64,000 bases of DNA, from the IMG/VR virus record IMGVR_UViG_3300042483_000317, positions 434 through 64,433 of that record; one strand, given 5' to 3'. The translations under genes were made by a program, and so were the position numbers. This DNA is from a virus. Lineage: Duplodnaviria; Caudoviricetes. Within the stretch, counting starts at the first letter, position 1; each line of letters starts with the position of its first letter. This document shows, in pieces, positions 1 to 34,721 of the stretch. A model generated the notes under the pieces. It did not search any database, was not told the DNA's origin, and saw nothing but the letters and a program-made list of their open reading frames with translations.

Positions 1-489
1 GTTGAGTGTATCGAATGTAATCAAGAAAATTCAGGAGGTGGACAATACATAATTAAAAATACTGATTGGAAATTATGGGAAAAAATTTATAATGATTGTG
101 TTCCACTATATGACCAAATGTTAGATTATCAAAGAAGATTCCCAATAAGTCCGGGTGAAATACAATTTTGGACAGCAGAAATGTGGTCATTATTATGGAA
201 CTTATGGTTACATGGGATTGAAACAAGAATAACATCTGAATTAGATTTTTCATGGGCAACAGATTCAATAAACATATATGAAGATAAACCAATTCTTCAT
301 ATGGCCGGAGTAACAGATAATCAAAAAAAAGATAAATTTTATAAAGGAGATTTTATTAATTCAAACCCATTAGACAAATTAAAAGAGGATATTAACTTTT
401 TTAATTATGTTAGTTCTCAAAGTTCTACAAAAAAATATGTAGAAGTTATGGAATCTTTGGTGAAAAAACAAATAAAGGATTATTTATAG
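1..489 (+). CDS. Glycosyltransferase-like protein, 5'-truncated (distant resemblance to HPAT/SGT1 peptide O-glycosyltransferases)
   Basis: Frame is open from base 1 (VECIECNQENSGGGQYIIKNTDWKLW...) into ORF 118..489. Motifs GGQYIIK, WTAEMWS and ILHMAG; WxxEM resembles WVLEMY/WISEMY of GT95/GT96. Confidence 0.5.
   Translation, partial: VECIECNQENSGGGQYIIKNTDWKLWEKIYNDCVPLYDQMLDYQRRFPISPGEIQFWTAEMWSLLWNLWLHGIETRITSELDFSWATDSINIYEDKPILHMAGVTDNQKKDKFYKGDFINSNPLDKLKEDINFFNYVSSQSSTKKYVEVMESLVKKQIKDYL
481..488 (+). promoter_or_regulatory. Putative late promoter TATTTATA
   Basis: Motif 21 nt before the ATG at 510; it recurs before many structural genes. Confidence 0.55.
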
Positions 490-509
490 TATAATAGAAA
501 AACATCATA

Positions 510-2747
510 ATGATATATTATTTTCAAACATGTTGCACCAGACTTATTGAATCCGATAATTATTTCGGAGTAAATGACCTTATATTAGCATCACCTATTT
601 TAGGGAATGTTTATTCAGTTGAGACACCTTCATTTAGTGGGTGTGCTTATTTAATACAAGGTCCAATACCATCAGGGTCATTAATTTATGATGGAAGTAA
701 AACAACCACAACATTTTATATTAGTTGCCAAACTTGTTTAGATAACGCTTATAGTTGTTTTCCACCTCCACCTCCGCAACCAGCAATTACTTATTTACTA
801 TCTAACGAATGTGATGTGATTACATTATTTCCAATGACCGTTGAATGCGATGTTATTAATCCTTCAACTCCGGGTGGTCGTGATGGTAGAGCGTCTATAT
901 CTATTACAGGAGGAACTCCTCCTTATACAGTAACTTGGGCTAATGGTAGTATATCTCCAGCAATTATGGATTTAGAATCCGGTTCATATCCCGCAACTAT
1001 TGTGGATTTTTATGGAGATTTTACAGCAAATACAATATGTGTATTGTCAGGTCCAACACGTACGCCTACACCAACACCAACATTAACACCAACACCAACA
1101 TCGTCATCCCCAATTTTAACTAAAACACCTACACAAACACCTACATTAACTCCTACACAAACTTTAACTCAAACACCTACATTAACTCCTACACAAACTT
1201 TAACTCAAACATCGGGTGCCGCCCCTACTAATACACCAACTCAAACACTAACTCAAACACTAACTCAAACACCTACACCAACTAAAACATTAACACCTAC
1301 ACCAACTCAAACATTAACACCTACATCATCGTCTCCATCATTTGGTGAAACATTTACAATGATTGCGAGAAGTTTAAATAGTTTTTCAATTATTAATGGT
1401 TTAGGATTTAGAATTGTGGCATCACTACCATTTAGAGTAGTTTGGGGTGACGGTAATACAACAAACTATCCATCAGGCACAATTGATATATCTCATACAT
1501 ATTCAACTCCTTATACCGGAAATGTATTAATTCAATCATCAAATTTAACATCAATCACATTGTTACAACCTGGTAATGTTACACCTCAAATAACGTCAAA
1601 CAGTGTTAGATATTTAGAGATTCAAACATCTCAATTAAATCTTTTAGATGGATTATTAAGTTATGGAACATACAGCCCAAGTTTTTTCACATCAGGTGAT
1701 ATAAGTTTATTACCATCAAGTTTAATTAGTTTTACTTCACTATTCGCTAATTGTTCAGGAAATGTTGCAAATTTACCAAGCGGTTTACAAGATTTATCAA
1801 TGGATTATTTAGGTAGTTCCCCAAATCAATCAAATAATATATCAGGTAGTGTTTCTAATTTACCATCAACATTAACTCAATTATTATTAGGTGGTAATAA
1901 CACTATAACGGGTAATGTTAGTGATTTCCCACCATTAATGATACAGATACAGATTGATGGTCAAAATACTATCACCGGTGATATATCTTTAATGTCAACC
2001 CCTAATTTAACTAAAATACTATTTAATGGTCTTAATACTATTTCAGGTGATTTAGGAGGTATATCTAATAATGTAACCGAAATACAATTTTACGGACAAA
2101 ATAATGTAACTGGTGATATATCTACATTACCACCAAACATAACTCGTTTAGACGTTAGAGGAAGTAACACTCTCTACGGTAATATTGGAACATTAAATTA
2201 TACAACATTAAATGAGATAAAAATAACGGGAAATAACACAATTTCAGGAAATATTAGTGGTATCAATTTAAAAACAAATTCAGTTTTACAATTAGAGGGT
2301 AATAACACTGTTACAGGTGATATTAGCGGTTTAGGTAATTCTTACATTTATCAACAATTATTAATTAGTGGTAATAACACAATTTCAGGGAATATTCAAA
2401 ATTTACCATCTAACAGTCGTTATGTTACTATATTAGGTAATAACACAATATCAGGTGATTTATCATTAGTTCACTTAAATATTAGATTTTTAGTTATTAA
2501 AGGTAATAACACAATATCAACATTCTCAAATAGTTCAAGAATTTTTACTGATTTAAATCTGATTGAAGTATTAGGTAGTGGATTTAATAGCACTAATATT
2601 AATAATTTATTAACGAGTTACGCATCATCAACTTGGGTGGGTATTAGACAATTAAAAATTAAAGGTACATCAACCCCTAAATATACTAACATTACATCAT
2701 ACAACACACTTCAAACAACAAAAGGAGTGACAATAACAATATCATAA
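510..2747 (+). CDS. Adhesin-like virion protein: Cys-rich N-domain, SprB-type repeat, Thr/Pro linker, PKD-like domain, LRR-like solenoid
   Basis: DGRASISITGGTPPYTVTW (SprB type); TPT/TQT tract; VVWGDG...SHTY (PKD); many LxxLxIxGNNTISGDIxxL repeats. Confidence 0.7.
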   Translation: MIYYFQTCCTRLIESDNYFGVNDLILASPILGNVYSVETPSFSGCAYLIQGPIPSGSLIYDGSKTTTTFYISCQTCLDNAYSCFPPPPPQPAITYLLSNECDVITLFPMTVECDVINPSTPGGRDGRASISITGGTPPYTVTWANGSISPAIMDLESGSYPATIVDFYGDFTANTICVLSGPTRTPTPTPTLTPTPTSSSPILTKTPTQTPTLTPTQTLTQTPTLTPTQTLTQTSGAAPTNTPTQTLTQTLTQTPTPTKTLTPTPTQTLTPTSSSPSFGETFTMIARSLNSFSIINGLGFRIVASLPFRVVWGDGNTTNYPSGTIDISHTYSTPYTGNVLIQSSNLTSITLLQPGNVTPQITSNSVRYLEIQTSQLNLLDGLLSYGTYSPSFFTSGDISLLPSSLISFTSLFANCSGNVANLPSGLQDLSMDYLGSSPNQSNNISGSVSNLPSTLTQLLLGGNNTITGNVSDFPPLMIQIQIDGQNTITGDISLMSTPNLTKILFNGLNTISGDLGGISNNVTEIQFYGQNNVTGDISTLPPNITRLDVRGSNTLYGNIGTLNYTTLNEIKITGNNTISGNISGINLKTNSVLQLEGNNTVTGDISGLGNSYIYQQLLISGNNTISGNIQNLPSNSRYVTILGNNTISGDLSLVHLNIRFLVIKGNNTISTFSNSSRIFTDLNLIEVLGSGFNSTNINNLLTSYASSTWVGIRQLKIKGTSTPKYTNITSYNTLQTTKGVTITIS
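1055..1335 (+). repeat. Thr/Pro/Gln linker with an exact 36-bp tandem duplication (1134-1169 and 1170-1205)
   Basis: caaacacctacattaactcctacacaaactttaact occurs twice in tandem. Confidence 0.85.
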
Positions 2748-2748
2748 A

Positions 2749-3774
2749 ATGGAATATAATTTTTGTTTAAATATTAGTATTAATAACTTACAAATTCATT
2801 TTAATCCAAACGGATTAGATGATAATGGATATAATCAATGGGTATCCGATGATTACACATATTCAATTAATTGGGACACCTCATTAAGTAGATGGAAATT
2901 GAATGGTGGTAATCTAACTTATTCAGTATTTTCTTCCTTACCATCTTCTGTACCCCCACTTAACTCTTGGTATATATTAGGGGCTAACGGAACTGTTTAT
3001 GCTAACGAAGGTGTTTGTAATCCATTAGGTATTAATTCATTAACCTATAGTGTTAATCAACCAATATGCTCATGTGATGGTAATTTAATGGTAACCGTTT
3101 CAGGTGGTTATCCACCTTATCAATATTCAATTGATAATGGTATAACATATTATAATTCACCAATGTTTAGTCAGTTATGTTCAGGAATCTATAGTATTAA
3201 AGTTGTTGATATAAGTGGAAACACTAATAGTGATAACGTGACATTAAATGAGCCTGTACCACCAACTGTTTATAGTGTAAAATTATCAACTACGACGACA
3301 AATCCTGTTAATAATAATACAACGTTAACTAATCAATATACAACAACAGTTAGTGTATCTCCTGAATTACCAAGTGGGACAGTAATCAATTTTAATATAT
3401 CTCACAATAATAAATTTTACTATTCTCCAAGTGGTGTAACTGCAAGTTTGGTTACTAATAGTACTTTATCTAAAAATAATACTTTAATACCTACAACATC
3501 AAATGGTACCGTAACATCGGACGCAAATTTTAATACAATTCAAGGATGTCAATCATATGTTAAATATTTAGATTTCTATACTGAAACTTGGGATTCATTA
3601 ACATTTACAAATTCGGATTCAATTGTTATTAACACGGTTACAACAATAACTAACAACGGGCCATTAACACCTTGTACGTATACATTAAGTGAAGATTTAT
3701 ATAATATTTACAACGCAACCATAAGTGGTTGTGGATGTTGTATTGTAGAAATTGTTAACGTTAATCAAAAATAA
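2749..3774 (+). CDS. SprB-repeat-containing putative virion protein
   Basis: CSCDGNLMVTVSGGYPPYQYSIDNG...LCSGIYSIKVVD; starts immediately after the upstream stop. Confidence 0.65.
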   Translation: MEYNFCLNISINNLQIHFNPNGLDDNGYNQWVSDDYTYSINWDTSLSRWKLNGGNLTYSVFSSLPSSVPPLNSWYILGANGTVYANEGVCNPLGINSLTYSVNQPICSCDGNLMVTVSGGYPPYQYSIDNGITYYNSPMFSQLCSGIYSIKVVDISGNTNSDNVTLNEPVPPTVYSVKLSTTTTNPVNNNTTLTNQYTTTVSVSPELPSGTVINFNISHNNKFYYSPSGVTASLVTNSTLSKNNTLIPTTSNGTVTSDANFNTIQGCQSYVKYLDFYTETWDSLTFTNSDSIVINTVTTITNNGPLTPCTYTLSEDLYNIYNATISGCGCCIVEIVNVNQK

Positions 3775-3786
3775 AAAAAATAAGAA

Positions 3787-3794
3787 TATTTATA
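3787..3794 (+). promoter_or_regulatory. Putative late promoter TATTTATA
   Basis: Motif 4 nt before the ATG at 3799. Confidence 0.55.
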
Positions 3795-3798
3795 TCAC

Positions 3799-6279
3799 AT
3801 GGGATACATATTAAAAAATACACAAGGTTTACTTAGCACGAGATTAACTGATACCGCAAGATTAAAATTATCACAAGGTAGCTTTAACATCTCTTATTTC
3901 CAAGTAGGTGATAGTGAAGTGTCTTACAATACATTAACAGGTACATCATATAATCAATTTACTACACAAATTCTTGAACCGGCATTTAATGCTCAAAATT
4001 CAACAGGAGCACCTGAATCTAACAAACAAAATGTTAAGTACCCATACTATGTTGATGGAATAACAGGTAATACTTATGGAATTCCATATATGGCATCTGT
4101 TCCTCAAGCAGTTTATAATAGAGCTGCGATGAGAGGATTCTTTACCGGAGATACAACCGCAACAACTTTTACATGGAGTGCACTAACAAATAGCCAATAT
4201 ACTATTAACTCTAACTATCTTGTAGATATGTCTACTTTAACAGGTGGTAGTGTTATTCAATTAGTATATTCAGGATGTAATTCAAATATTGTAAGATTAC
4301 CATCTATTGGTGATTTTGTAACAATATATTATGATGGTCAAGGAGAATACAATTGTTATTGTGACCCAAACCCAACACCAACACCTACATCTACACCAAC
4401 ACCAACACCTACTTTTGACGCCAATCCAACCCCAACACCTACTCCAACAATAACAAAGAGTGCGAACATATGTGACCAAGGTCCAACACCAACACCTTCA
4501 TCGACTTGTTGTACTACTCCATTACCACCTACTCCGACACCACCTGATTGTGAGATGTCAATGAGTAGTTGTTATTCAATATTAACTTATAAAATTGTAG
4601 ATATTTGTAACGGTGATTACACATTAGATAGACCAACACCTGACTTTTCAAACTTTTCAAATGGATGTTTTGCCAGAGTATTAGTATATCCACCAAACAT
4701 GACGACAATATACGATAGTATTACACCTAACTCACATTGGAATCAAAATGTTATCAATTTTGAATCATTATGTAGCACGGATGAATCTGATGTTAAAATT
4801 TGGAATATGAATATTCCTTGGTCAGAAAATCCTGCAGGTTTATATGATTCAACATATAAAGGATACCCTTATTTTGGTTCAGCATCTTATATAGGAACTA
4901 AAGAATATCTTGGTTATATGTCTGATAGTGGTCAAACAGATACTGGTGTTGTTTATTATTATAATTCATTTGATGAGACAGTAGTTGTTCAACCTAGTGA
5001 ACAAAAAGCCATCGCAATTATTCATTATACTAATCAAGCGATTGATTTCTTCTATGGTGAGAAATTCGCCTTTGAACCTTACGACCCTAACAACCCTACA
5101 GATACAACAGGTGAAGCTCGTAACTTCAGATTACATTTGCCATGGTTAATGTGGCATAAAAATCCTGAATGTTGTAAAGGACAAACTTTTTGGGTTGACC
5201 CACCAGGTTTTGACGAATATTTATTGTTCAAACCATATTATATTGAATCAACCAAAAATAGTGATATGAATACTCCGGGTATTAGATATTATCAATTATG
5301 GGACACTCATGCAAACAATAATGGGTTACCAAATAGAATTGGTAAAGTATTCCCTGATTCACAAATTATTGTAATTGACGATGAAGAAATTATTGCAGCA
5401 ATGTCTTATAAATCAAATCGTAACTGGACATTACCTGCACCTCAAATTGCATTAACAACTCCTAACACTTGTGTGGTTGAGAACAATCAACCAACAGTTA
5501 GAGGTATTTTAAGTGCTAACACAGAATATATGTACGTGACTTACAGATTTAGTAATAGTAGTTTATTTACAAATTCATTACATTGTAATTATTATACTAA
5601 AATTCAAGGACCTAATATTGATTGTGGTTCGATAGTGTCTCAAAATGTATCAGTTAGATTTGGGGCTGAATTCCCTTGTTTAAATCAACCATCATTTAAC
5701 CCAACAACAACTACTACAACAACAACTACAACAACATTATGTCCGACATCATGTGATATAATTACAGGGTTCTATGCTGACACATTACAAATTCTATGTC
5801 AAAAAGTAATTGGTACAAGTAGACCTGACCCAGATGAATGGAAGATTATTGATTTTACATCACAAATAAGTGCAACAACAGTTAATGGTTATTTAACAGT
5901 AGATAGTTTAACAGGGTCAACATTTACCATCACTGAAGAAAATTACAGGTTAGCACCAATTTATGATTTAAATGATTATATCCCATTAGTATCAGGTAGT
6001 ACAACTACACCTTCATTAAATTTTGGTGATGAATATTATTTCTATGGTTCATTAGAAACTGATATTGAAGCAACCATCTATGAAATGAAATATAAGATTA
6101 ATCTTGGTCAAGCAGAGTTTCAATCAACCTCAAATCCTACTTGGACTAAAGGTACAAATTCATATATTACAGAAATTGGTCTTTACGATTCTGATATGAA
6201 TCTTATGATTATATCAAAGCTGCAATCACCGGTCTTAAGACAAGGTATTCAACAGTTTTTGGTTAAATTTGATTTCTAA
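3799..6279 (+). CDS. Baseplate/tail-collar-type structural protein with Pro/Thr and poly-Thr inserts
   Basis: N-terminal LTDTARLKL...ISYFQVGDSE and C-terminal YITEIGLYD..NLMIISKL..P resemble tail-collar/fibre-attachment domains. PT tract about 4366-4545, poly-Thr about 5704-5736. Confidence 0.6.
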   Translation: MGYILKNTQGLLSTRLTDTARLKLSQGSFNISYFQVGDSEVSYNTLTGTSYNQFTTQILEPAFNAQNSTGAPESNKQNVKYPYYVDGITGNTYGIPYMASVPQAVYNRAAMRGFFTGDTTATTFTWSALTNSQYTINSNYLVDMSTLTGGSVIQLVYSGCNSNIVRLPSIGDFVTIYYDGQGEYNCYCDPNPTPTPTSTPTPTPTFDANPTPTPTPTITKSANICDQGPTPTPSSTCCTTPLPPTPTPPDCEMSMSSCYSILTYKIVDICNGDYTLDRPTPDFSNFSNGCFARVLVYPPNMTTIYDSITPNSHWNQNVINFESLCSTDESDVKIWNMNIPWSENPAGLYDSTYKGYPYFGSASYIGTKEYLGYMSDSGQTDTGVVYYYNSFDETVVVQPSEQKAIAIIHYTNQAIDFFYGEKFAFEPYDPNNPTDTTGEARNFRLHLPWLMWHKNPECCKGQTFWVDPPGFDEYLLFKPYYIESTKNSDMNTPGIRYYQLWDTHANNNGLPNRIGKVFPDSQIIVIDDEEIIAAMSYKSNRNWTLPAPQIALTTPNTCVVENNQPTVRGILSANTEYMYVTYRFSNSSLFTNSLHCNYYTKIQGPNIDCGSIVSQNVSVRFGAEFPCLNQPSFNPTTTTTTTTTTTLCPTSCDIITGFYADTLQILCQKVIGTSRPDPDEWKIIDFTSQISATTVNGYLTVDSLTGSTFTITEENYRLAPIYDLNDYIPLVSGSTTTPSLNFGDEYYFYGSLETDIEATIYEMKYKINLGQAEFQSTSNPTWTKGTNSYITEIGLYDSDMNLMIISKLQSPVLRQGIQQFLVKFDF

Positions 6280-6285
6280 TAAAAT

Positions 6286-6885
6286 ATGAAAAAAACACTT
6301 AAAGAAAGTCCTAAAGTTTTGGGATTAGATGTGAGCACCAAAACAATTGGTTGGGCATTATTTGATATACAAAGTCGAGAACTACTTGAATTAACTCACA
6401 TCTCTCCAATACCAAAACCAAAAGAAGAAAATAAAATAAAAGAATTACTTCTTAAAGGTGAAATCTTTAGAACTAAACTTTTAGAATATAAAGATATGGG
6501 TATTACTAAAGTTATTATTGAAGAACCTTTATTAAACTCAAACAATGTTTACACAGTTCAAACTTTATTAAGATTTAATACTTTAGTTACAAAAGAGATA
6601 TATGATGTATTAGGAGTAGTGCCCGATTTCATATCAACATACAATTCTCGTAAGTTTGCCTTTCCGGAGTTAACTCAATTAAACGATAAAGGTAAATACG
6701 TACTATTTGGAGGTCTTCCTAAAGACATTGATAAGAAAATGATTATATGGGACCTAATTGCAAAAAAAGAACCTCAAATCACTTGGTTATACACAAGAAA
6801 CAATACCTTAAAAAAAGAAAATTTTGACCAAACAGATGCTTATTGTTGTGTTATAGGTCATATGAAACAAGAAAAAATATGGTAA
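6286..6885 (+). CDS. ruvC: RuvC-like Holliday junction resolvase
   Basis: VLGLDVSTKTIGWA, IIEEP and DQTDAY give the RuvC D/E/DxxD catalytic pattern; 199 aa. Confidence 0.8.
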   Translation: MKKTLKESPKVLGLDVSTKTIGWALFDIQSRELLELTHISPIPKPKEENKIKELLLKGEIFRTKLLEYKDMGITKVIIEEPLLNSNNVYTVQTLLRFNTLVTKEIYDVLGVVPDFISTYNSRKFAFPELTQLNDKGKYVLFGGLPKDIDKKMIIWDLIAKKEPQITWLYTRNNTLKKENFDQTDAYCCVIGHMKQEKIW

Positions 6886-6915
6886 AAAAATAACCCACCT
6901 TTTGGTGGGTTTTTT
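6884..6915. terminator. Bidirectional intrinsic terminator
   Basis: Stem aacccacc/ggtgggtt flanked by A and T runs, between convergent genes. Confidence 0.85.
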
Positions 6916-6916
6916 A

Positions 6917-9900
6917 TTATTGACATACTCCTGAATTTACCTGAATTTCTAACGTTGAGCTTGCTGCAACATTAACATTTAAAAACTCAACATTAAAATA
7001 TTGATTTGTTGTTGTGATTGGTACAACTTGACTCATATAAAGTGAATTATCCACATATAATAAAACACATTGTGAGTTTCCTACAAGAGATAAGAGTGTC
7101 ACAGTTATATTTTGATTTACTAACCCTAATTGAGTACCCAATAAAGGATTTGACACAGTTACAGGGAAACTATATGAACTATCATATATATAAAACGTCT
7201 GTGGTTGGATATTTGTAACTTGAGATTCTTCTTTTTGAATACTAACACTGAAATTTCTTGTTGGTTCAATATTAATTTCACTCTTACATTTTGAACAAGA
7301 ATCTTCAGTATCATTATTAGATGAATAAATTGTATTACTAATTGTTGTGAAATAATTAGTATTATAAGTTTGAACGTTTAATTCTGGTGGTAATGTTGGT
7401 TGTCCGTTATAAATATCTTTTAATCTCCAACACGTCACATTACCTCTAATGTCAGTAGAACTAAATCCGTCCGCAATTAATAAACCAGGTAATACTAATA
7501 TAGGTTGCAATATATAGGATGTTTCCCCCTCATTATTAAGCTCACATGATGCGTATAAATACCATAATGGGTCTGCACTAGGTGTTGGTGTCATAGTCGG
7601 TGTTCTTGTTGGAGTTGGTGTTAATGTTTGAGTTAATGTTGGTGTTAATGTTGGAGTATTTGTTGGTGTAGATGTTAATGTTTGAGTTAAAGTTTGTGTA
7701 GGCGTTGATGTAGGTGTGGCTCCTAATGTTGTTGTTTGAGTCGGAGTATTAGTTAATGTAGGCGTTAATGTAGGCGTTTGAGTTGGAGTAGGTGTTTGAG
7801 TTAAAGTTTGTGTTGGAGTTAATGTAGGTGTTGGCGTAGGTGCTAAACCACAATATTGACATGAAATGTTATATTCAATAAATACATCAACAGTAACATC
7901 TGTAGCAACCAAATATTGAGCCTCACATTTTGCGATTATTTGAATCCCATTGTTTAATGAGTCAATATTTACTTGAGCAACTTGGTCAAAACTTTCTAAT
8001 AACGCCACTAAAGCATTAAAATATTCTTCATCCGTTGGATAGTCGTTTAAAGCATAACTTATATAAAATTCTGAAGTTTCTGTAACATCCCCAATAATTG
8101 CAACAATATTAAATATTGCTTGATTCAGTAAACAATTTGTATATCCGGAAGTTAAATCATAATAACCTTCGTTTAACATTTCTTTTGGACCTTTTTTAAC
8201 TAATTCTCCAATGTTTTCAAAATCACTATCACAAATATTAAATGTTTGAAACGATGAGAGTAAATCAAATCCATCTATAGTTACACTTCGAGTTTTAACA
8301 CATCCAGCACTATCAGTTACTTGTAAACTGTATGTCCCCGCACTTAAATTACTTAAATAATAACCTGTTTGACCATTTACGTTATTACTCCATAATAATG
8401 TAAAAGGTGGTGTCCCTTGTGTGATATATGCCGATACTGTACCATCGTTACCATTATTAGCATCAGTACCTGATATTAAAAAATCAACATTGTTAGATGT
8501 ATTAATTACAAAGTTAATTATTTGAGCACATCCCGGAACAGCATCATCAATTTCAGCCGCGTAAGCACCTGAAAATAAATTATTAAATGTTACCGCACTT
8601 GTCTCAATTTGTTGTAATTGACTTCCTATATTTATTGTATAAGGTGGTGTACCACCTGAAATACTAATTTGTACAGAACCATTTTGTAAATCACAAGTTG
8701 TTCCTGTTGTACTAGCACTTAAAGTAAAAGGAGATGTAGTTGATATTGTATATGGATTAGTATATACACAAGCACCATTATCAGAAATTGTTAATGTGTA
8801 AGTATCTGCAGCTAAATTAACAAATTGCCAAACAGATGAGTTTGTTGATTGATTTTGAATATCACCGTTAGAATTTACTAAAGTATATGTAAAAGGTGGT
8901 TGACCACCTAACAGAGTTATTTCTATTTTTCCGTTATTCCCACAATTTGCATTGATTGTATTAATTGTCACAATTGAAAATCCATTTGGTGTTAATACTG
9001 TTATTGAACCGACAACGGAACATAACGCAGCATCCGTTACTTTTACTGAAAATAATCCGGTTCCTATATTTTGAAATGTTTGTGAAGAACTAAATGACAC
9101 ATTTATTTGACCTGTAGACGCCGAATAATAATATGGTCCTGTACCTCCTGAAACAGTTACTGTTACCTCACCATCAGATGAAAAACAAGACGGTGGCACA
9201 CTTGTTAGAATACCAGCAATACCCAACGCAGGAACTAACCCAACTGTCGCACTTTGAGATAATGTACAATTTGTACTATCCGTTATTGTTACACTGTATG
9301 TACCATTTGTTAACCCTGTAATAAAATCAGTTGTTTCACCATTAGACCATAAATAAGTAAATGGAGCATTACCCGTTAAACCTGTCACATATATCTTACC
9401 TGATTCAACACTATTACATCCGGAATCTTCAACTATATAAAAACCCCAAGTAATTGTTGTTGATGGTTTTATAATAATAGTTTCAGAAGTTCCTGTACAA
9501 CCACCTCCATCATCAGCAACTACATAATAAATCCCCGGTGATAATGCTGGCGGTGTTATAAAGGTATTATAACCTGTTGTTGCTGAGGTTATAAACCCTG
9601 TTAATGTATTGTATAAATAAAAATCCGCAGAACCATAAAAACTACTAGTTTGAGCAGTTAACGCACCATTATCAAAATTACATGTTGTATTTTGTTGACC
9701 TATAATACTTACACAAGTACCACTAGAAATATTAACATTTACCGGTAAAGAAGTTTGAGATGGACTAGAACAAGAATCTAAAACATTAAAGGTATATGTT
9801 CCCGCCGATAAAGATGTTGCGGTATATCCTGTAACACCAGGACCTAAAGCTATTGTTCCAAGTGCTGGCGAAATCCACTGAATACTATAATCAGGTGCAA

Positions 9901-9988
9901 CACCATAAATATCCACACTAAAACTACCCGAGTTTGTATTTGAACAATCTCCAGTTATACTTAAAATTATATCTAAACTACAAGCCAT
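6917..9988 (-). CDS. Multi-SprB-repeat adhesin-like virion protein with Thr/Pro linker and Cys-containing C-terminal domains
   Basis: Several CxxxxGxIxVxxxGGTPPYTY...LxxGxYxVxVTD repeats; TPT linker about 7575-7843. Confidence 0.75.
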
Positions 9989-12900
9989 TAATTACATAAA
10001 ATTTCAAAATTTATTCCAACATTCAATTTAAAATTGATTCCCGTATCATTTACTGAACAAATTGAGCTATAAACCACAACATCAGTATCTGTTAAAATAT
10101 ACTCATAACCATAAAAATCTAAACTATTTAATGCGGGTATTAATGCCGCATCCCATTGGGCTGTTGTTGGTGAACTTAAACCAGTGTTAATATAACCAAT
10201 CCCCGTGAAGAATTGATATTGAACAATTTCAACATCATCTAAACTTAAAACAACATACCAAGTACTTTTTAAATCGTTTTGTACACAATTATTTAAATTG
10301 TAAGGTGGTTGTTGTGATGTTAAATAATTATTTAGTAGATAACCTAACACCGCACTAAACGATTGTAATTGTGGATTGGTCTGCCATGGATAAATAGAAC
10401 ATTGTATTGATTGTACGTAACAATCATATGTAAATAGATTACTAATCATTGAACATGGATTACAAGGTACAGGTATTAATTGACAACCCTCTTGTCTTCT
10501 CCAAACAAATTTTTGTCTATGGAATATTGAATTTTCATATTTAACACCCGTATTCCAAATAGTACTTGCAGGTATCATTTGTTCAACTAATCTTACCCAA
10601 TAATCCCCCATTCCATCTACATACTCAATCATTTTACTATAGTTGAAACTACCATCAGGTACTCCTGCTAAATTTTGAGCATCTAAATATTTCCAATAGA
10701 TTGACTGAAGAGTTGGATATCCCATAGTCTTACCGTCAGTAGAGAATTGTCTATTCCTAACATTAATCATGTTTTTCCAAAATGTTTGGGCAAACTCAAA
10801 GAATGTTTTACGTTTTGGTTGTGGATTTATTTCGGTCCAATCCACTCCACCTCTCATCGGATAATTTGATACCGGATTTGGGTCGCAATATGTTGGTTGA
10901 ACATAATTTAAACCTTCATTTGGTATTGGGAAATTATATTCTCTTGACATTACCCATACATCATATGATAGTCCTTGAGCAGGATTTAAAAATAAATCAG
11001 TATTTTTGGCATTAAGAACTAACGCATCATTAGTTGTATAGTATCTAGCATTATAACCACCATCTAAATTTGAACGTAGTCCAATTTCGGTGTCAACCCA
11101 ACTTTTATTATTATCAATAGTTTGTGTTAGATTATAACCTAAATTCATAAAAGGGAATTGAGCAAATCTACTAAAATACTCTTGTCCATAAGTATATGGG
11201 GTTAAAACTGTTTGATAATTAGGGTTCGCACCTGTAAATACACTATTAGTATAACTTACCTCTTCAGGGGCTCTATGTTTAGGTGTTTGTTCAAACCATC
11301 CACTACCTTTCTCAAAGAAATAATCTTCAGTATTTACCGGAGCTTTAGGAAACCCTAAATCATCCATTGGATATTCATCTTTAGTAATACTAACATCTTG
11401 AATAACGGTTGTCGTAGTAAAACCGCTGTATTCAATATTTCTAATTTTATATGTGTAACCTGCCTCAAGTGTTGGTAATTCTTGAGTATAAGTACCTCCT
11501 GATATTTGAGCGAACTGTGTGTTAAATTGTTCAACATTAATCCTTTGGTCGGCCAAATAAATATATTCATTAAATTCAACCAAAGCATCAGGAGCACCAA
11601 TTAACGCCATTAAAGTTTCAATTGATTTTCTAGTCCCTTTTGATTTGAATAGATACGCAGAATTTAATATTAAATTTCTATAGTATTGATAATTTAATTC
11701 GTCAGGCGTTGTTGCATCTGAAATACCAGGGTATTGAGACCTGTCAGTGTTTGTTTGGCCAAAAACTGAACTTAAAAAATCATCAGTAGACACTGGTGAC
11801 ATGTTTGTTTGCCACCCTAATGTTTGTGATAAATTTTTAAGTAATTGAGATGGTATGTCATCACCCGGGTTATAGTGAACTGAATTCATAAATGCCAACG
11901 CACTTATAAATTTATTAGTTTCGTCAAAACTTCTACCATAAATTTGTAAAACTTTTTCCATCTTTTGACCTAATGTGTCAAATTCTTGGAATGCTCCGGT
12001 AGTTAAAAATCTTGCAATAATATTTGTTTTATACCCATCTAAAGATACACCAATATCATTTAATTGAATTAAATAATTAGTGAATGCGTTTGTGACTATA
12101 TCAAGATTCCACGACCCATATAATGGAAAGGTAACAAACTCTTGAGACGTAAAATAACTTCCGTCTTCAGCATCTCTTGGTACATTAAAATTAGCCGTAT
12201 ATTTTGGTGTTATATCTCTATTTAATAAGAAACTTTCAACCTCATCTAAATCTTCATTAAAAATTCTATTAACTTGATAATCATTTGGTCTAATAACTAA
12301 ATCATCAAATGTAAATGATTGATTTGGGAATGGGTTTCCACTAACAGTTATATTTAAAGTCCCTGACGTTATTGATGTTGTTGGAACAATTGCCGTAACA
12401 TTATAACCATTACCACCATAGTATAAACTATAATAAGCGTATTGGACGGTCATATCTCTAAGCGACGATACTTCAATCTCTTTTAACGCAAGATTTCTTG
12501 TTGAATTAATTGTGAAATCAATTGCGAATGGGTTTCTTAATCTAGAAACATCTAAATCAAAACTAGTCTCATTGTCAATTTGATTATAGGTTATATTTGT
12601 TGCGGTTTCACCTTTAACATAATTTTCCCCCATAATAGTCGCCTCAAGAGCCGCAGGAAATTTAGAAATAATTACCTCAACCGAAGTTGATAGTCTTTTC
12701 ACTAAAGAACCGTATTGGGTAAAATTTGTAATCTGACTTAAATCAAAATTAGGGTAAACTTTAAAGTTATTCTCAAAAATTGCTCTTGATTGAATATTAC
12801 TTTCTAAACCTAAACCTTCTAAACTAATTGGGTCCGAAAACGTTCCGGTATTAAAAGTTCTATTAGTTTTTTCATTAAAGGAAGTCGCAAATTCAAAATT

Positions 12901-13011
12901 ACCCTGCGTCAAACCACCCCCCGTGACTAATTGGAAACCAACTAAATCATCAGAGAATGAACTTGCACCGGATGGACCTTGTGGAGGACATGTAAATTTT
13001 TGTAATGCCAT
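9988..13011 (-). CDS. Baseplate wedge protein (P2 gpI / T4 gp7-like core)
   Basis: [11 protein letters not shown]...[20 protein letters not shown] motif; located in the baseplate cluster. Confidence 0.65.
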
Positions 13012-13925
13012 TATTCAGTTATGTTTGTAAAGTTTTTACTAAAATCAATATTATCACCTCTATTTTGTCTAACTTCATATAATAACGTATTAAATTGGTC
13101 TCTAATTTCGTATAGGTTATATTGTTGGTAGATGTTATTATTTGTGTCGTAGATTGTGTAGATACCATCATCCATAGATTTAGTTTGATTACCATAAAGA
13201 GCAATAGCCAATGTTGAGAAATCTTGGTCAGCAATTTCAATGTCAAGGGTAATAGGATTAAAGAAGGTATTAGACATTATAATATTTTGATTTGGCTGTC
13301 CAATATATGGTGTTGCATTTGGTTTGTTCGTCGGAGATGAAGACGGAGAAACCGTACAAAAGATTATATTTGTATTATTATCAGTATATCTATATCTTAT
13401 TGCTTTTTGTGATGTGTTTGTTAAATTTTGAACAACCGGTTCACAAAAGAATGAGGATGTTACAATTCTAAAGAAATTAGGTATTTTTGTTCCATCAGAA
13501 TTTAAATACTCAATTCTAAATCCAACTAACCCCTGATTAACAAATTTATTTCTAAATTGACTTGGTACATCATTCAAATCAATTACAATTCCTTTTACGT
13601 TAGGTAATGATGATAACACACCACAATCCAAAATACTCGTTCTAATCTCCGCTGGTCTAATATATAAGGTGTAGATACCTAATTGGTTAAATTGTTCAGC
13701 AGGTAGTCTTAAATTGTATAATCCACCCAATATTTCCACATTAGGGTTTGGGCTTGAACTTGTTTGTTGATTATTAAAATAAGGTCTTAATATTGATACC
13801 GCATCTAATTTTGTTAAAACAAAATTATCTGTTTCATCTCTTGATGGTGTATAATTAAGAATGATGTCCACATCTTCGGGTGATACATCTGCGGGTCTTA
13901 TTGTACCGTATGTTCCTGTTGCCAT
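13011..13925 (-). CDS. Putative virion structural protein
   Basis: 304-aa ORF, TAATG-coupled within the tail operon. Confidence 0.5.
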   Translation of the reverse strand: MATGTYGTIRPADVSPEDVDIILNYTPSRDETDNFVLTKLDAVSILRPYFNNQQTSSSPNPNVEILGGLYNLRLPAEQFNQLGIYTLYIRPAEIRTSILDCGVLSSLPNVKGIVIDLNDVPSQFRNKFVNQGLVGFRIEYLNSDGTKIPNFFRIVTSSFFCEPVVQNLTNTSQKAIRYRYTDNNTNIIFCTVSPSSSPTNKPNATPYIGQPNQNIIMSNTFFNPITLDIEIADQDFSTLAIALYGNQTKSMDDGIYTIYDTNNNIYQQYNLYEIRDQFNTLLYEVRQNRGDNIDFSKNFTNITE

Positions 13926-13934
13926 ATTATTATT

Positions 13935-31742: not shown

Positions 31743-32747
31743 TTAATTGTTGTTATAATTTCTTTTTTCTTTTCTTGTTAGTTTCATAAAGGGTCTAACA
31801 AAATTCACCCATGCGTCATCTCCTTTTGGTAGATACTTAAAAAATCCGTCTTCCATCATCATTTTTATAAGTCCTCTATGACCCCTTCCATCAGGGTCTA
31901 AACTTTCCTTATAATATAATTCAACAAGTTCTTTAGCATCATCGGTAATTAATGGGTTTGACAAATTTATAATCTTTTCATTAATTACAAAATATTCATC
32001 CCCATAAACACCACTTTTAGTTTTACCCGATAATAAATTTTGTAATGTTTTATTATTTTTATTTTCCTTAAGTAGGTTTTCCGTCCTTTCTAAAATATCG
32101 GTAATTGAAACCGGTTTTTCAAGTAGCTCAGGGAAAAACTTAATAAGAGTTTTTTCTCCTAATCCTGAAATACCTTCAATATTATCCGATTTATCTCCTG
32201 ATAAAATTTTATAAGTTCTAATGTTTTGATGTGGGAATTCGTAAATATCACATTTGATTTTACTTCCTAAATGATAAGTCTCTTTAGTTCTTGGATAATA
32301 CACCGATACCTTATCTGAAATAAGTTGAGTAAGGTCTTTATCCCCCGAATAGATAGTCTTTTGTTCGTTCTCCGAGATTTGGCAATAGTAAGCTATCAAA
32401 TCATCCGCTTCGTTATTATCTACGTTGATTTGTCTTATATAACAATCCTCCAAGTATTGTTTGATTCTTTCTTTCTGCTCAGTGAAAGAATCTAACTTAT
32501 ACTCGTTGTCTCTGTCTCTACGATTTTCTTTGTATTGGGGATAAATAAGTTTTCGAGTAGATGAGTTATCATCACCGTCCCACATAACAACAACCTTATC
32601 AAAGTCTTGTTCGTCTATGAAACGTCTAATGGTGTTTATAAAGTGCCATAAAGCCCCAATATGTTTTCCATTATGATAATAATCTTTTACTCCGTGAAAG
32701 CCAATCTTTACTAAATTATTGCCGTCCACTAATAGGGTTTTAACCAC
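31743..32747 (-). CDS. 5'-3' exonuclease / flap endonuclease (T4 RNase H-like)
   Basis: LLVDGNN, YKENR, EADDLIA, SGDKDLTQL and GDKSDNIEGISGLGEKT; GTG start. Confidence 0.92.
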   Translation of the reverse strand: MVKTLLVDGNNLVKIGFHGVKDYYHNGKHIGALWHFINTIRRFIDEQDFDKVVVMWDGDDNSSTRKLIYPQYKENRRDRDNEYKLDSFTEQKERIKQYLEDCYIRQINVDNNEADDLIAYYCQISENEQKTIYSGDKDLTQLISDKVSVYYPRTKETYHLGSKIKCDIYEFPHQNIRTYKILSGDKSDNIEGISGLGEKTLIKFFPELLEKPVSITDILERTENLLKENKNNKTLQNLLSGKTKSGVYGDEYFVINEKIINLSNPLITDDAKELVELYYKESLDPDGRGHRGLIKMMMEDGFFKYLPKGDDAWVNFVRPFMKLTRKEKRNYNNN

Positions 32748-32768: not shown

Positions 32769-33773
32769 CTAATCTTTTTCTTCTACTTCTTTCAAATCAA
32801 AATCACCATCTGTTCCAATGATGTTTTTCCAATATTCAGAGTATTCTTTTTTGTACTTCTCAATTGAAGCTTTTTCTTCTGTAGTCTCTTTACCTGCCAA
32901 GAATCCATGAGGTGTTACTATAATTTTACCATCCTCATAACCTAATCCATTGATGTGGTTTTTCATTACTGAAATTTTAGTTCTCACAGCAAATTTGATA
33001 GTTCTCTTATCTTTAGTCGCAGTAATTTTTGTTGTTCCCGCACCTTTCTCATTACCAAAACGGAATACTAATGAAGAGTTTAACCAAATTGCCTCACCAC
33101 CTTTAGCTTTAATTTTAGGTTGTCCAAATGGATTATCCGGAAGTTCAACCCAAGGTTGGTTAACAATAACCAAAGTATTCTCATATTTAGAATCCGCTTT
33201 ACGACTTCCTGAAATTCTTTGATTAATTCCCATTCCAATTTTATCCGCTAATGCAGCAGCATTATGTTGTTTTCCACCTTTACCTTCATAAGTCATTTTA
33301 CAAGGAACTGAACCAACTGAATCCCATAAGAATAGTAAACTATAATCTAATTCACCTTTCTCTTGAGCATCAAGTAAACTATTAATGTAATCAGTTATTT
33401 GTTCTATATAACTAAAGTTATTATTGAAGATGTAGAACCCATCCCATTCTAATTCACCAGTTTCTTCATCAACCATTTCTTCACAATCAAAACCCATAAG
33501 TTTTGCGTGTTCAAATGACCATTTTTGTTCCGTAATAATGAACACAGGTAATATTTGTTTTTTCTGAGCATCAACCGCACATTTAACTAAAGCTGTGGTT
33601 TTACCTGTATCGGAGTGACCCAAGAACATATTTAAATGTCCAATAGCCGGACCCGGAATACCAACAGCATCCAAAAAGTCAGGACCTAAATCAAAGAACC
33701 TTTGTGGTTTGTATTTTGCGGATGTAGAGAATTTGTCCTTAATGGACTTGAAATCATGTTTTTTAATTGCCAT
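32769..33773 (-). CDS. uvsX: RecA/UvsX-family recombinase
   Basis: GHSDTGKTT, WDSVG, IVNQ and GGEA. Start placed at MAIKK (33773) instead of 33842. Confidence 0.88.
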   Translation of the reverse strand: MAIKKHDFKSIKDKFSTSAKYKPQRFFDLGPDFLDAVGIPGPAIGHLNMFLGHSDTGKTTALVKCAVDAQKKQILPVFIITEQKWSFEHAKLMGFDCEEMVDEETGELEWDGFYIFNNNFSYIEQITDYINSLLDAQEKGELDYSLLFLWDSVGSVPCKMTYEGKGGKQHNAAALADKIGMGINQRISGSRKADSKYENTLVIVNQPWVELPDNPFGQPKIKAKGGEAIWLNSSLVFRFGNEKGAGTTKITATKDKRTIKFAVRTKISVMKNHINGLGYEDGKIIVTPHGFLAGKETTEEKASIEKYKKEYSEYWKNIIGTDGDFDLKEVEEKD

Positions 33774-33805
33774 ATCTCTAATTAATTTAATTTTTTTAGT
33801 TTTTT

Positions 33806-33854
33806 TAGACAAGTTGGACACCAAGTAAGACCTAGTGTCCAAGTTATATGTCTA
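33806..33854 (-). promoter_or_regulatory. Long intergenic hairpin between the ssb and recombinase genes
   Basis: Minus strand: TAGACA..TTGGACACTAGG-TCTTA-CTTGGTGTCCAA..TGTCTA; G-U pairs extend the stem on the mRNA strand. Confidence 0.6.
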
Positions 33855-33866
33855 TGTTTTTTTTGA

Positions 33867-34721
33867 TTAGAAAGGCATATCATCTTCCGGTTCGTCACCC
33901 GCTTGTGGGTCAACCGGTGCAGATGGTTTAGAACCACCAAATGACATCTCATCAGAATCAGAGTTACCATAATCGTAACCACCTTTATCAGAATTCCATT
34001 TTGGAGTCTCACCTCTTGCAATAGCTTCTAAATACTCAACCGGTTTTTTAGAGTAAACATCTTCCCAAGTTAACTCATCATTAACCCATCCGTCAGCAGT
34101 TGCTTTGTCCTCGTGAACAGGAGCCGCGTCATCATACATAACTGTTTGGATTACCGTGTAAAATGCACCTTTTGGAGTTTTTGCTTTAGTTAATTCTAAA
34201 ATGATATCTCTACCACTAACAGGGTCAGTAATATCACCTTTATTTCTCCAAATAGGAATAATTTTATCTAAAATTCCTTCATTTTTGTAGTTGTGTTTAA
34301 ATCTCCAAAATTTAACACCATCCGCCTCGTTATCTCTATCAATAACTTTCACGATGTAAAATTTACGTGATAAGTACTGTTTAGCTAACTCTTTGTCAGA
34401 TTCTTTTCCGGTCGCACGAAGTTCTTCGTAAACCTCATTTAAAGGTGAACGCTCACTGTCATTTTTTCCCGGGTCATAAAATTTTTGGAATTTTCCGTCA
34501 ACTTGAATCTCGTGATACCAAACTTCATTAAATGGTGAAGAACCATCTTTTGTTGGTAAGATTCTTAATCTTCTTTGGCCTTGAGTTTCCTTATCTTGAA
34601 GGATTGCCGCGAAGTATTTTTTCATTCTTTCTTCTTGTGTGAATTTTGAGGTAGAAGAAGAGCTACCTTGTTTTGATTGCTCGTATTGAGCCAAAACTGC
34701 GTCTAATGAATTTGTCGCCAT
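33867..34721 (-). CDS. Single-stranded DNA-binding protein (T4 gp32-like)
   Basis: RLRILP...PF..VWYH, YIVKVIDR, DITDP..GRDI and acidic tail EPEDDMPF. Confidence 0.85.
   Translation of the reverse strand: MATNSLDAVLAQYEQSKQGSSSSTSKFTQEERMKKYFAAILQDKETQGQRRLRILPTKDGSSPFNEVWYHEIQVDGKFQKFYDPGKNDSERSPLNEVYEELRATGKESDKELAKQYLSRKFYIVKVIDRDNEADGVKFWRFKHNYKNEGILDKIIPIWRNKGDITDPVSGRDIILELTKAKTPKGAFYTVIQTVMYDDAAPVHEDKATADGWVNDELTWEDVYSKKPVEYLEAIARGETPKWNSDKGGYDYGNSDSDEMSFGGSKPSAPVDPQAGDEPEDDMPF

What the first reader, a model, noticed from the sequence alone, without database searches (positions are those of the whole stretch)
1136..7832. In-frame 45-nt inverted repeat in two convergent adhesin genes: possible tip-swapping inversion
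Seen: 1136-1180 (aacacctacattaactcctacacaaactttaactcaaacacctac) matches the reverse complement of 7788-7832 at 44 of 45 nt, including nearly all wobble positions. Both copies encode [15 protein letters not shown] in the same codon phase, in linkers that separate the SprB stalk from the C-terminal tip. Inference: a crossover would invert about 6.6 kb, which contains the RuvC gene, and exchange the PKD-LRR tip with the other tip in frame. This resembles the Mu G-segment but would use homologous recombination (UvsX), since no invertase is visible. At minimum it suggests recent copying between the two linkers.
Basis: partly seen in the sequence, partly recalled or inferred. Interest (0 to 1): 0.7.

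Follow-up and report, generated by a model that had tools for sequence, protein, structure and literature searches.

The report
Shared linker patch in phage fibre genes
Two facing fibre-like genes of an uncultured giant lake phage share a real, recently copied 45-base patch in their threonine-proline spacers; these spacers are where related phages swap fibre tips, but nothing shows that the stretch between the two copies flips.

Summary
The repeat is real: 1136-1180 matches the reverse complement of 7788-7832 at 44 of 45 bases, in the same codon phase, inside Thr-Pro linkers of two convergent genes (A 510..2747 +, B 6917..9988 -). An in-silico inversion keeps both chimeras open. Codon shuffles that keep the protein reach this length in 8 of 2000 trials. 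A relative (L008) has an independent 59-base exact A-B tract (0 of 1000 shuffles). A third gene there has the same peptide motif but shares only 15-16 bases, so codon bias alone does not explain the identity.

The window is a fragment of an uncultured lake jumbo myophage. Tips and linkers are mosaic among relatives: the LRR-like tip sits on stalk A or on a third stalk.

The inversion reading found no support. None of 77 informative related loci has the predicted order. No tip sits on the other stalk. Contigs from three lake runs bridge the B junction as in the window. No serine or tyrosine recombinase or reverse transcriptase was found in a complete relative.

Best reading: short-patch copying between look-alike linkers that serve as tip-exchange joints.

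Earlier scan notes on look-alike phages proposed glycosylation of such Thr-Pro tracts. They did not report this repeat.

The parts
1136..1180 (+). Repeat arm in gene A. It lies in the stalk-near half of the Thr-Pro linker and encodes [15 protein letters not shown].
7788..7832 (-). Repeat arm in gene B. It lies at the stalk-near start of the Thr-Pro linker, with the same peptide and the same codon phase.
1134..1211 (+). 36-nt tandem unit, 2.2 copies at 100% identity, that contains the A arm. It points to recent slippage in the linker.
510..2747 (+). Gene A, 745 aa. N-terminal domain 510-1046 with one weak SprB match, two-part Thr-x-Thr-x linker about 1047-1340, LRR-like solenoid tip 1341-2747.
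6917..9988 (-). Gene B, 1023 aa. Conserved core of about 710 aa with SprB repeats (7853-9988), linker 7568-7852, tip of about 216 aa (6917-7567) modelled as two beta-sandwich domains. It is the last gene of the minus-strand run that starts at the baseplate wedge genes.
2749..3774 (+). 341-aa protein with one weak SprB match. It lies between the arms.
3799..6279 (+). 826-aa protein with its own Pro-Thr linkers (4360-4548) and a poly-Thr tract (5683-5757). It is conserved in 475 viral contigs and was used as the anchor for relatives.
6286..6885 (+). 199-aa RuvC-like protein (weak PHROG match only). It is 89-99% identical in the closest relatives and 69-94% in the more distant ones.
6892..6911 (.). 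Terminator-like hairpin that reads both ways, between the convergent RuvC-like gene and gene B.
   Evidence: the same kind of hairpin in relatives
1..489 (+). 3' part of a phrog_4417 gene (326 aa in relatives), directly upstream of gene A.
32769..33842 (-). UvsX-like recombinase. An SSB (33867..34721) and an exonuclease (31743..32747) lie beside it. This is the phage's own homologous-recombination kit.

Best explanation
The two arms are a patch of DNA recently copied between the look-alike Thr-Pro linkers of two convergent fibre or adhesin genes of an uncultured lake jumbo myophage. The two linkers are about 290 nt long and 74-83% alike in inverted orientation. The phage encodes its own recombination proteins. 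I infer that strand invasion between the linkers copied a short patch one way (a gene-conversion-like event), and that slippage then duplicated 36 nt of it in gene A. In this phage family, linkers of this kind are the joints at which tips are gained, lost and moved between stalk genes over evolutionary time. The patch is a footprint of that recombination, not a switch. Shown: the identity, its excess over codon-shuffle chance, a second independent case in a relative, and the mosaic of tips and linkers among relatives. Inferred: the copying mechanism, its direction, and that it happened within one genome.
For: 1. Identity beyond chance. 8 of 2000 synonymous shuffles reach it, 0 of 2000 unit shuffles, and 7-11 of 1500 context-keeping shuffles. 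It is the only long match among 28 pairs of Thr/Pro segments in the window.
2. Independent replicate. In the L008 genome, the second linker of A and the start of the B linker share 59 exact bases of a different sequence (0 of 1000 shuffles). A third gene, C, carries the same peptide motif but shares only 15-16 bases, so peptide plus codon bias does not produce the identity.
3. Within-genome against between-genome matches. The A-B match within a genome exceeds all 28 between-genome A-B comparisons in WIN (this window) at 45, L008 at 60 and L010 at 27.
4. Linkers are exchange joints. The LRR-like tip, with the far half of its linker, sits on stalk A in WIN, L005 and L010 types, but on a third stalk C in L091, the contig that also holds L008, followed there by a fragment of the 341-aa gene; L092-L094 show the same tip-plus-fragment pattern with no stalk-A match. 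L115 has a B core 96% identical to the window's but a linker of the Ile/Leu/Val kind, as in L010. Linker plus tip is optional on both A (186 aa without it) and B (about 728 aa without it). B tips are 44-79% identical where flanking genes are 89-100%.
5. Recombination genes are present: UvsX-like, SSB, exonuclease and RuvC-like.
6. The 100% tandem duplication shows that the linker changes fast.
Against: The excess in the window is modest (about 0.003-0.007 per test) and would weaken if all 28 segment pairs counted as separate tests. Two of the four distinct close genomes that have both long linkers show no base-level excess: L005 139 of 1000 shuffles and L010 264 of 1000. The 11 more distant genomes show no raised within-genome match. 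Copying within one genome cannot be told apart from import of both pieces from an outside donor. The same recombination that copies a patch can also end in a crossover, so rare inversion is not ruled out. Only contigs, not raw reads, were available.
Confidence: 0.6

Rival explanations
1. A standing, reversible inversion by homologous recombination between the two arms flips 1181-7787 and re-deals the two tips between the two stalks within phage populations.
For: The arms are in frame and the chimeras stay open. The terminator hairpin between the convergent genes works in both directions, so both operons would still end properly. The phage has its own recombination genes. A preprint reports two coexisting isomers of a repeat-flanked 30-kb segment in freshwater cyanophages, with the recombinase not identified (10.64898/2026.02.14.705889, passages read). 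The block containing these genes has changed orientation at least 3 times in the family.
Against: None of 77 informative loci has the predicted order. There are 0 A-B cross hits among 111 tips. The B tip follows the B core in 22 of 22 loci, and the LRR-like tip follows it in 0 of 15. Contigs from three runs bridge the B junction as in the window, and none of the 15 listed joints links the two arms (88 further joints were not shown). The exact homology is only 26 bases. Both tips would be expressed in either state, so nothing would be switched on or off. Two close genomes lack a long identical tract. In 47 of the 77 informative loci A and B point the same way, so a crossover there would delete, not invert.
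Confidence: 0.08
2. Chance: two low-complexity linkers built from the same few codons and 12-nt units, expanded by slippage, happen to share 45 bases.
For: The linkers use very few codons. Lake metagenome contigs pile up on 1051-1400 at summed depth 2266-6467, against about 20-45 in most of gene A outside its linker, so such DNA is common. Synonymous shuffles already give 29 nt on average and up to 51. L005 and L010 fit the shuffles.
Against: Only 4-11 per 1500-2000 shuffles reach the observed length, and 0 of 2000 when residues are also shuffled. L008 has a 59-base exact tract (0 of 1000), while the same peptide motif in gene C shares 15-16 bases. Between-genome A-B pairs reach at most 34.
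Confidence: 0.12
3. Both patches came from outside. Recombination with co-infecting relatives placed pieces of the same donor linker into A and into B separately, with no exchange between A and B themselves.
For: Linkers and tips are clearly mosaic between genomes. Twenty listed lake runs from 17 studies hold the stretch or a part of it, 14 of them half or more of its words, and 475 viral contigs encode a relative of the 826-aa protein, so co-infection is plausible.
Against: No donor with this tract was seen among the linkers compared; the best between-genome non-orthologous match is 34. It needs two events where one is enough. The same thing happened again in L008 with another sequence.
Confidence: 0.15
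4. A site-specific invertase system of the Mu G / P1 C / shufflon kind, with the arms as crossover sites.
For: Only the general picture: inverted repeats inside fibre genes.
Against: No Resolvase (PF00239) or Phage_integrase (PF00589) match in the window's record, in a 318-kb relative rated 100% complete or in a relative rated 93% complete; 0 of 5 records each, and the controls ring. There is no constant-part/variable-part layout.
Confidence: 0.01

Closest known systems
Recombination at conserved motifs in T-even tail-fibre adhesin genes (Tetart et al. 1996, 1998, as cited in PMC3157838; passages read)
   Same: Conserved short motifs lie beside hypervariable receptor-binding parts, and exchanges tend to fall in or near those motifs and give chimeric adhesins. 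Here the linkers lie between conserved stalks and variable tips, and breakpoints fall inside them.
   Different: The joints here are long low-complexity Thr-x-Thr-x spacers, not glycine-rich structural motifs. They occur in at least three different stalk genes of one genome. The footprint is an in-frame inverted tract between two genes of the same genome. No crosses have been done, because the phage is uncultured.
Invertible fibre segments: Mu G (Gin), P1 C (Cin), p15B Min (recalled; summarised in the introduction of 10.64898/2026.02.14.705889)
   Same: Inverted repeats lie inside fibre genes, so an inversion would join another C-terminal part in frame.
   Different: There is no recombinase gene. 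Each gene has its own N-terminal part, so both tips are made in either state. No second orientation was seen.
Repeat-flanked genome isomers in freshwater Anabaena cyanophages (bioRxiv 10.64898/2026.02.14.705889; passages read)
   Same: Lake phages; a segment between inverted repeats; orientation not tied to phylogeny; no recombinase identified. Here a block of about 6-7 kb around these genes changed orientation at least 3 times in the family.
   Different: In that work both isomers were shown in one stock by PCR and read mapping. Here the orientation differs only between distant genomes, the block's ends lie outside the A/B linkers, and no flanking repeat above chance was found.
Thr/Pro-rich linkers of secreted multi-domain proteins, and phage virion O-glycosylation (recalled; also earlier scan notes)
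   Same: Extended Thr-Pro spacers between folded domains of surface proteins.
   Different: Nothing about sugar was tested here. That reading concerns what the linker protein does, not the DNA identity.

Membership tests
Serine-invertase fibre switches (Mu G/Gin, P1 C/Cin, Min) | A serine recombinase gene of the Resolvase family in the element | tested here: not met
   PF00239: 0 of 5 records, including relatives rated 100% and 93% complete; 12 of 14 control genomes ring
Serine-invertase fibre switches (Mu G/Gin, P1 C/Cin, Min) | One constant N-terminal gene part outside the segment is joined in turn to alternative C-terminal parts, and only one is expressed | tested here: not met
   Two complete convergent genes, each with its own start. 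Both tips stay in an open frame in either orientation
Serine-invertase fibre switches (Mu G/Gin, P1 C/Cin, Min) | Both orientations occur in populations or among close relatives | tested here: not met
   0 of 77 informative loci. Contigs from X1, X2 and X4 show the window's B junction. Raw reads were not available, so a rare form is not excluded
Shufflons (Rci tyrosine recombinase) | A tyrosine recombinase gene and several short repeats that bound several segments | tested here: not met
   PF00589: 0 of 5 records, 14 of 14 controls ring. There is only one pair of long identical arms
Diversity-generating retroelements | A reverse transcriptase, with a template repeat and a variable repeat that differ at adenines | tested here: not met
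   PF00078: 0 of 5 records. The arms differ at one synonymous T/A position in a linker, not in a binding domain
Motif-mediated modular exchange of phage adhesins (T-even type) | Conserved joint sequences beside hypervariable receptor-binding modules | tested here: met
   Stalk cores and neighbouring genes are 70-100% identical (neighbouring genes 89-100%) while B tips are 44-79% identical; linker plus tip is present or absent on the same cores
Motif-mediated modular exchange of phage adhesins (T-even type) | Natural chimeras whose breakpoints fall in the joints | tested here: met
   The LRR-like tip with the far half of its linker sits on stalk A or on stalk C. A B core 96% identical carries a different linker kind
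Motif-mediated modular exchange of phage adhesins (T-even type) | The proteins are tail fibres or adhesins that set host range | not testable with these tools
   Only context is available: B ends the baseplate gene run and matches a virion structural PHROG at E 5e-6. No isolate and no virion proteome exist
Homologous-recombination genome isomers between inverted repeats | Both isomers coexist in one population | tested here: inconclusive
   Contigs drop rare variants. None of the 15 listed joints links the arms, and 88 were not shown

The most novel reading that the evidence does not exclude
The Thr-x-Thr-x linkers of this jumbo-phage clade may be in-frame recombination joints that let the phage re-deal receptor-binding tips among at least three stalk genes (Z/C, A, B). 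Crossovers between convergent genes would be one route, giving low-level inversion isomers in lake populations. The repeated flips of the block that holds gene A and the RuvC-like gene would have the same cause.
Probability: 0.15. Interest if true: 0.7.

Novelty: new variant of a known kind. Interest (0 to 1): 0.4.

Why it matters
Host range of phages is set by fibre tips, and how tips move between genes and genomes is a central question for phage ecology and for reading host range from uncultured genomes. This locus gives a clean natural example in an uncultured, widespread lake phage group. Low-complexity spacers, usually dismissed as filler, mark the breakpoints of tip exchange. They also carry fresh footprints of recombination between two genes of one genome. 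If the inverted form were found in raw reads, it would be a fibre-shuffling inversion with no dedicated recombinase. As it stands, it is a modest extension of the T-even picture to a new kind of joint.

Tried and rejected
1. Megablast of 1-14000 against 50,697 phage records found no match. tblastn of the 826-aa protein also found none. The sheath's best hit is Microcystis phage Mel-JY01 at 31%, so no cultured relative or host could be named.
2. Single-protein scans with the two tips reached few or no loci. Alignment queries were needed.
3. Laying reads: all 24 listed runs are kept as contigs. Contigs break at 1163/1182 inside A's tandem unit, so the A junction is not bridged. The only opposite-strand joint listed (4455/7670, 31 letters on the shorter side) lies in Pro-Thr low-complexity sequence and does not link the arms. 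Rare inversion therefore stays untested.
4. Fold searches. The B tip model (pLDDT 85.5) gave only weak beta-sandwich matches, the best a pilin at E 7.9e-4 and TM 0.31. The A tip model (pLDDT 67.5; the first 100 or so residues are poor) matched LRR proteins only at E 1.7e-3 or worse. Neither names a receptor.
5. I asked whether the family-wide flip of the block came from crossovers in the B and Z linkers, so that tips would travel with the block. The closest pair with opposite orientation (L018, L013) does not show swapped tips. No inverted repeat above chance flanks the block in 5 loci. This stays unresolved.
6. A-B base-level excess in L005 and L010 was not significant.
7. Pfam for the phrog_4417 protein, the RuvC-like protein and the 1007-aa protein gave nothing at E up to 1. 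PDB sequence search with the RuvC-like protein gave nothing.
8. A look-up of earlier scan notes for this genome found none. A word look-up failed because it held too many words and was not repeated.
9. The careful tree search did not finish in time; a quick tree was used.
Full report
**What is there.** The window is bases 434-64433 of a 64,433-base IMG/VR virus record that CheckV rates 22% complete. GC content is about 27-35%. PHROG matches show a contractile-tailed phage: sheath, tube, baseplate hub and wedge proteins. It also carries a ribonucleotide reductase, a DnaB-like helicase, an exonuclease, an SSB and a UvsX-like recombinase. Close relatives lie on contigs of up to 318 kb, one of them rated 100% complete. 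The window is therefore a fragment of a jumbo myophage.

Twenty listed lake-water metagenome runs from 17 studies hold the stretch or a part of it, 14 of them half or more of its sampled words. No record among 50,697 deposited phage genomes matches the DNA or the 826-aa protein. The sheath's best hit is a Microcystis phage at 31% identity. The host is unknown.

**Gene layout.**

| Coordinates | Strand | Product |
|---|---|---|
| 1..489 | + | end of a phrog_4417 gene |
| 510..2747 | + | gene A, 745 aa |
| 2749..3774 | + | 341-aa protein |
| 3799..6279 | + | 826-aa protein |
| 6286..6885 | + | 199-aa RuvC-like protein |
| 6892-6911 | both | terminator-like hairpin that reads both ways |
| 6917..9988 | - | gene B, 1023 aa |
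| 9988..13011 | - | 1007-aa protein |
| 13011..13925 | - | 304-aa protein |

The minus-strand genes continue back to the baseplate wedge genes.

- **Gene B.** It has at least four SprB repeats (E 8e-23). It also has a weak match to a virion structural protein family.
- **Gene A.** It has one SprB match below Pfam's cut-off.
- **A tip.** It models as a beta-solenoid. Its listed Foldseek rows are nearly all LRR proteins, none better than E 1.7e-3.
- **B tip.** It models as two beta-sandwich domains with no clear relative.

1136-1180 and the reverse complement of 7788-7832 agree at 44 of 45 bases, with 26 exact. Both are in the same codon phase, and an in-silico inversion leaves open chimeras of 513 and 1255 aa. 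Both arms lie in Thr-x-Thr-x linkers of about 96-98 residues. The A arm is part of a 36-nt unit repeated 2.2 times at 100% identity.

**Chance tests.**

| Null model | Trials reaching 45 nt with at most 1 mismatch |
|---|---|
| Synonymous codon shuffle, both proteins kept | 8 of 2000 |
| Two-codon-unit shuffle | 0 of 2000 |
| Codon shuffle | 0 of 2000 |
| Shuffle that also keeps the neighbouring residue | 7-11 of 1500 |
| Pooled codon resampling | 4 of 1500 |

Within the window, this pair scores 45. The other 27 pairs of Thr/Pro-rich segments score 10-23. The excess is real but modest.

**Relatives.**
- **Sample.** 475 viral contigs encode a relative of the 826-aa protein, and 80 loci were fetched.
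- **Gene order.** Of these, 30 have the window's order, with A and B convergent. Another 47 have B upstream on the same strand as A. Three lack the flank. None of the 77 informative loci has the order that an A x B linker inversion predicts.
- **Tips.** Tips cut from A and B genes gave 111 sequences with no A-B cross hit.
- **Alignment scans for the two tips.** The B tip follows the B core in 16 of 16 viral loci and 6 of 6 metagenome loci. Many of these are the same contigs as before. The LRR-like tip follows stalk A in 7 of 15 loci. In 4 loci (L091-L094) it is followed by a fragment of the 341-aa gene with no stalk-A match. The gene was read only in L091, where the tip sits on a third stalk. 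It follows an unexamined stalk in 3 loci, and one locus is cut short. It follows the B core in none.
- **Contigs of lake runs.** Contigs from X1, X2 and X4 bridge the whole B linker with no difference from the window. The A linker is broken at its tandem unit. None of the 15 listed joints links the two arms, and 88 joints were not shown. Contigs drop rare variants, so a rare inverted form is not excluded.

**No dedicated recombinase.** Resolvase, Phage_integrase and reverse-transcriptase profiles found nothing in 5 records. These include the relatives rated 100% and 93% complete, and the control genomes did ring.

**Evidence that the tract is copied DNA.** Four distinct close genomes carry long linkers in both A and B.

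| Genome | Longest within-genome A-B match (nt, at most 1 mismatch) | Shuffles reaching it |
|---|---|---|
| WIN (this window) | 45 | 8 of 2000 |
| L008 | 60 (59 exact) | 0 of 1000 |
| L005 | 29 | 139 of 1000 |
| L010 | 27 | 264 of 1000 |

A-B pairs taken from different genomes reach 16-34.

- **The L008 tract is independent.** It has a different sequence from the window's. It lies at the start of A's second linker and at the start of B's linker.
- **Internal control.** Gene C in the same L008 genome carries the same peptide motif but shares only 15-16 exact bases with A or B. Peptide plus codon usage therefore does not give base identity.
- **Wider comparison.** Over 15 distinct genomes, the within-genome match beats all 28 between-genome comparisons in WIN, L008 and L010. 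L005 is beaten by 2 of 28. The other 11 genomes show nothing.
- **Net result.** Base-level copying is shown in two of the four close genomes. In L005 and L010 only the residue make-up of the two linkers agrees, and that remains unexplained. L010 has Ile/Leu/Val in both linkers. WIN, L005 and L008 have Gln/Leu.

**Evidence that linkers are exchange joints.**
- **Optional modules.** Linker plus tip is optional on both cores. A is 186 aa without it in L006, L007, L019 and L025. B is about 728 aa without it in many loci.
- **Fast-changing tips.** B tips are 44-79% identical while the RuvC-like, 1007-aa and 304-aa proteins next to them are 89-100% identical.
- **One tip on two stalks.** In L091, the contig that also holds L008, the LRR-like tip and the far half of its linker, including the Ser-Gly hinge, sit on a third stalk gene. 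A 96-aa fragment of the 341-aa gene follows, which marks a cassette moved from an A-type context.
- **One core with two linker kinds.** L115 has a B core 96% identical to the window's but a linker of the L010 kind.
- **Closest known pattern.** This matches what is described for T-even adhesin genes, where exchanges fall in or near conserved motifs (PMC3157838, passages read).

**Reading.** The most likely account is short-patch copying between two look-alike linkers in inverted orientation by the phage's own recombination system, followed by slippage in A. It happened in a locus where such linkers serve as joints for tip exchange. I put this at 0.6.

| Rival reading | Weight |
|---|---|
| Import of both patches from an outside donor | 0.15 |
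| Chance | 0.12 |
| Standing inversion by homologous recombination | 0.08 |
| Site-specific invertase | 0.01 |

The standing inversion is geometrically sound but unsupported. It would also not switch anything on or off, because both tips are expressed in either state.

**A related side finding.** The block from the phrog_4417 gene to the RuvC-like gene lies in either orientation between B and a third stalk gene, Z. Z is the same family as stalk C. The left flank of L064 is the reverse complement of the right flank of L070.

On a quick tree of the 826-aa protein, the orientation needs 5 changes, and well-supported branches force at least 3. The tree used 53 distinct rows from the 76 of 81 rows that had a long match and a flank marker. 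No inverted repeat above chance flanks the block in 5 loci. The closest pair with opposite orientation does not show swapped tips. The cause of these flips is open. A preprint reports coexisting isomers of a repeat-flanked segment in freshwater cyanophages, with no recombinase identified (10.64898/2026.02.14.705889, passages read).

**Earlier scan notes.** Notes on look-alike phages proposed that a glycosyltransferase among these fibre genes sugar-coats the Thr-Pro tracts. I did not test this. Pfam finds nothing in the phrog_4417 protein. If true, it would bear on why the linkers keep their composition, not on the DNA identity.

No supplementary files were consulted.

Noticed in passing
L064:976-13061 against L070:7579-22430; window 1-6916: The block from the phrog_4417 gene to the RuvC-like gene lies in either orientation between gene B and a third stalk gene, Z. 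30 loci have one order and 47 the other. A quick tree of the 826-aa protein needs 5 changes, at least 3 of them forced by well-supported branches. No flanking inverted repeat above chance was found.
   Followed up: partly
L091:2972-5711: In the contig that also holds L008, an 815-aa third stalk gene carries the LRR-like tip (66% identical to the window's) with the same far half-linker. A 96-aa fragment of the 341-aa gene follows. This is a moved cassette.
   Followed up: partly
L008:10001-13429 and L008:8553-8900: The 826-aa gene is split at its poly-Thr tract by an inserted Pro-Thr linker, a domain of about 160 aa and a stop. The remaining 190 aa restart as a separate frame. A 115-aa copy of the 826-aa gene's N-terminus lies upstream of the 341-aa gene. 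L077 shows a similar break.
   Followed up: no
window 1047-1340 and 7568-7852; linkers of L005, L008, L010, L052, L059, L062, L063, L069, L077: The long linkers are two-part: two Thr-x-Thr-x runs joined by a short Gly-containing hinge (such as SGAAP, LGATP, PGLPP, IGSTPP). This is seen in A, B and C/Z genes across distant relatives.
   Followed up: no
window 1047-1340 and 7568-7852, against L010, L115: The variable residue of the two linkers agrees within a genome: Gln/Leu in WIN, L005 and L008, and Ile/Leu/Val in L010. It differs between genomes with near-identical stalks; L115's B linker, the only one recovered there, is also of the Ile/Leu/Val kind. In L005 and L010 there is no base-level excess, so this agreement is unexplained.
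   Followed up: partly
window 1051-1400: Contigs from four lake metagenome runs pile up here at summed depth 2266-6467, against about 20-45 in most of gene A outside its linker. DNA that codes Thr-Pro linkers of this kind is very common in these lakes.
   Followed up: no
window 54885-55010 (-) and 5683-5757 (+): The 1137-aa tail sheath carries a 42-residue Thr/Ser-rich tract, and the 826-aa protein a run of 11 Thr. Earlier scan notes on look-alike phages tie such tracts to a candidate glycosyltransferase. That was not tested here.
   Followed up: no
window 6892-6911: An 8-pair GC-rich hairpin with T runs on both sides lies between the convergent RuvC-like gene and gene B. The same kind of hairpin stands at this spot in L005, L012 and L064.
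   Followed up: partly
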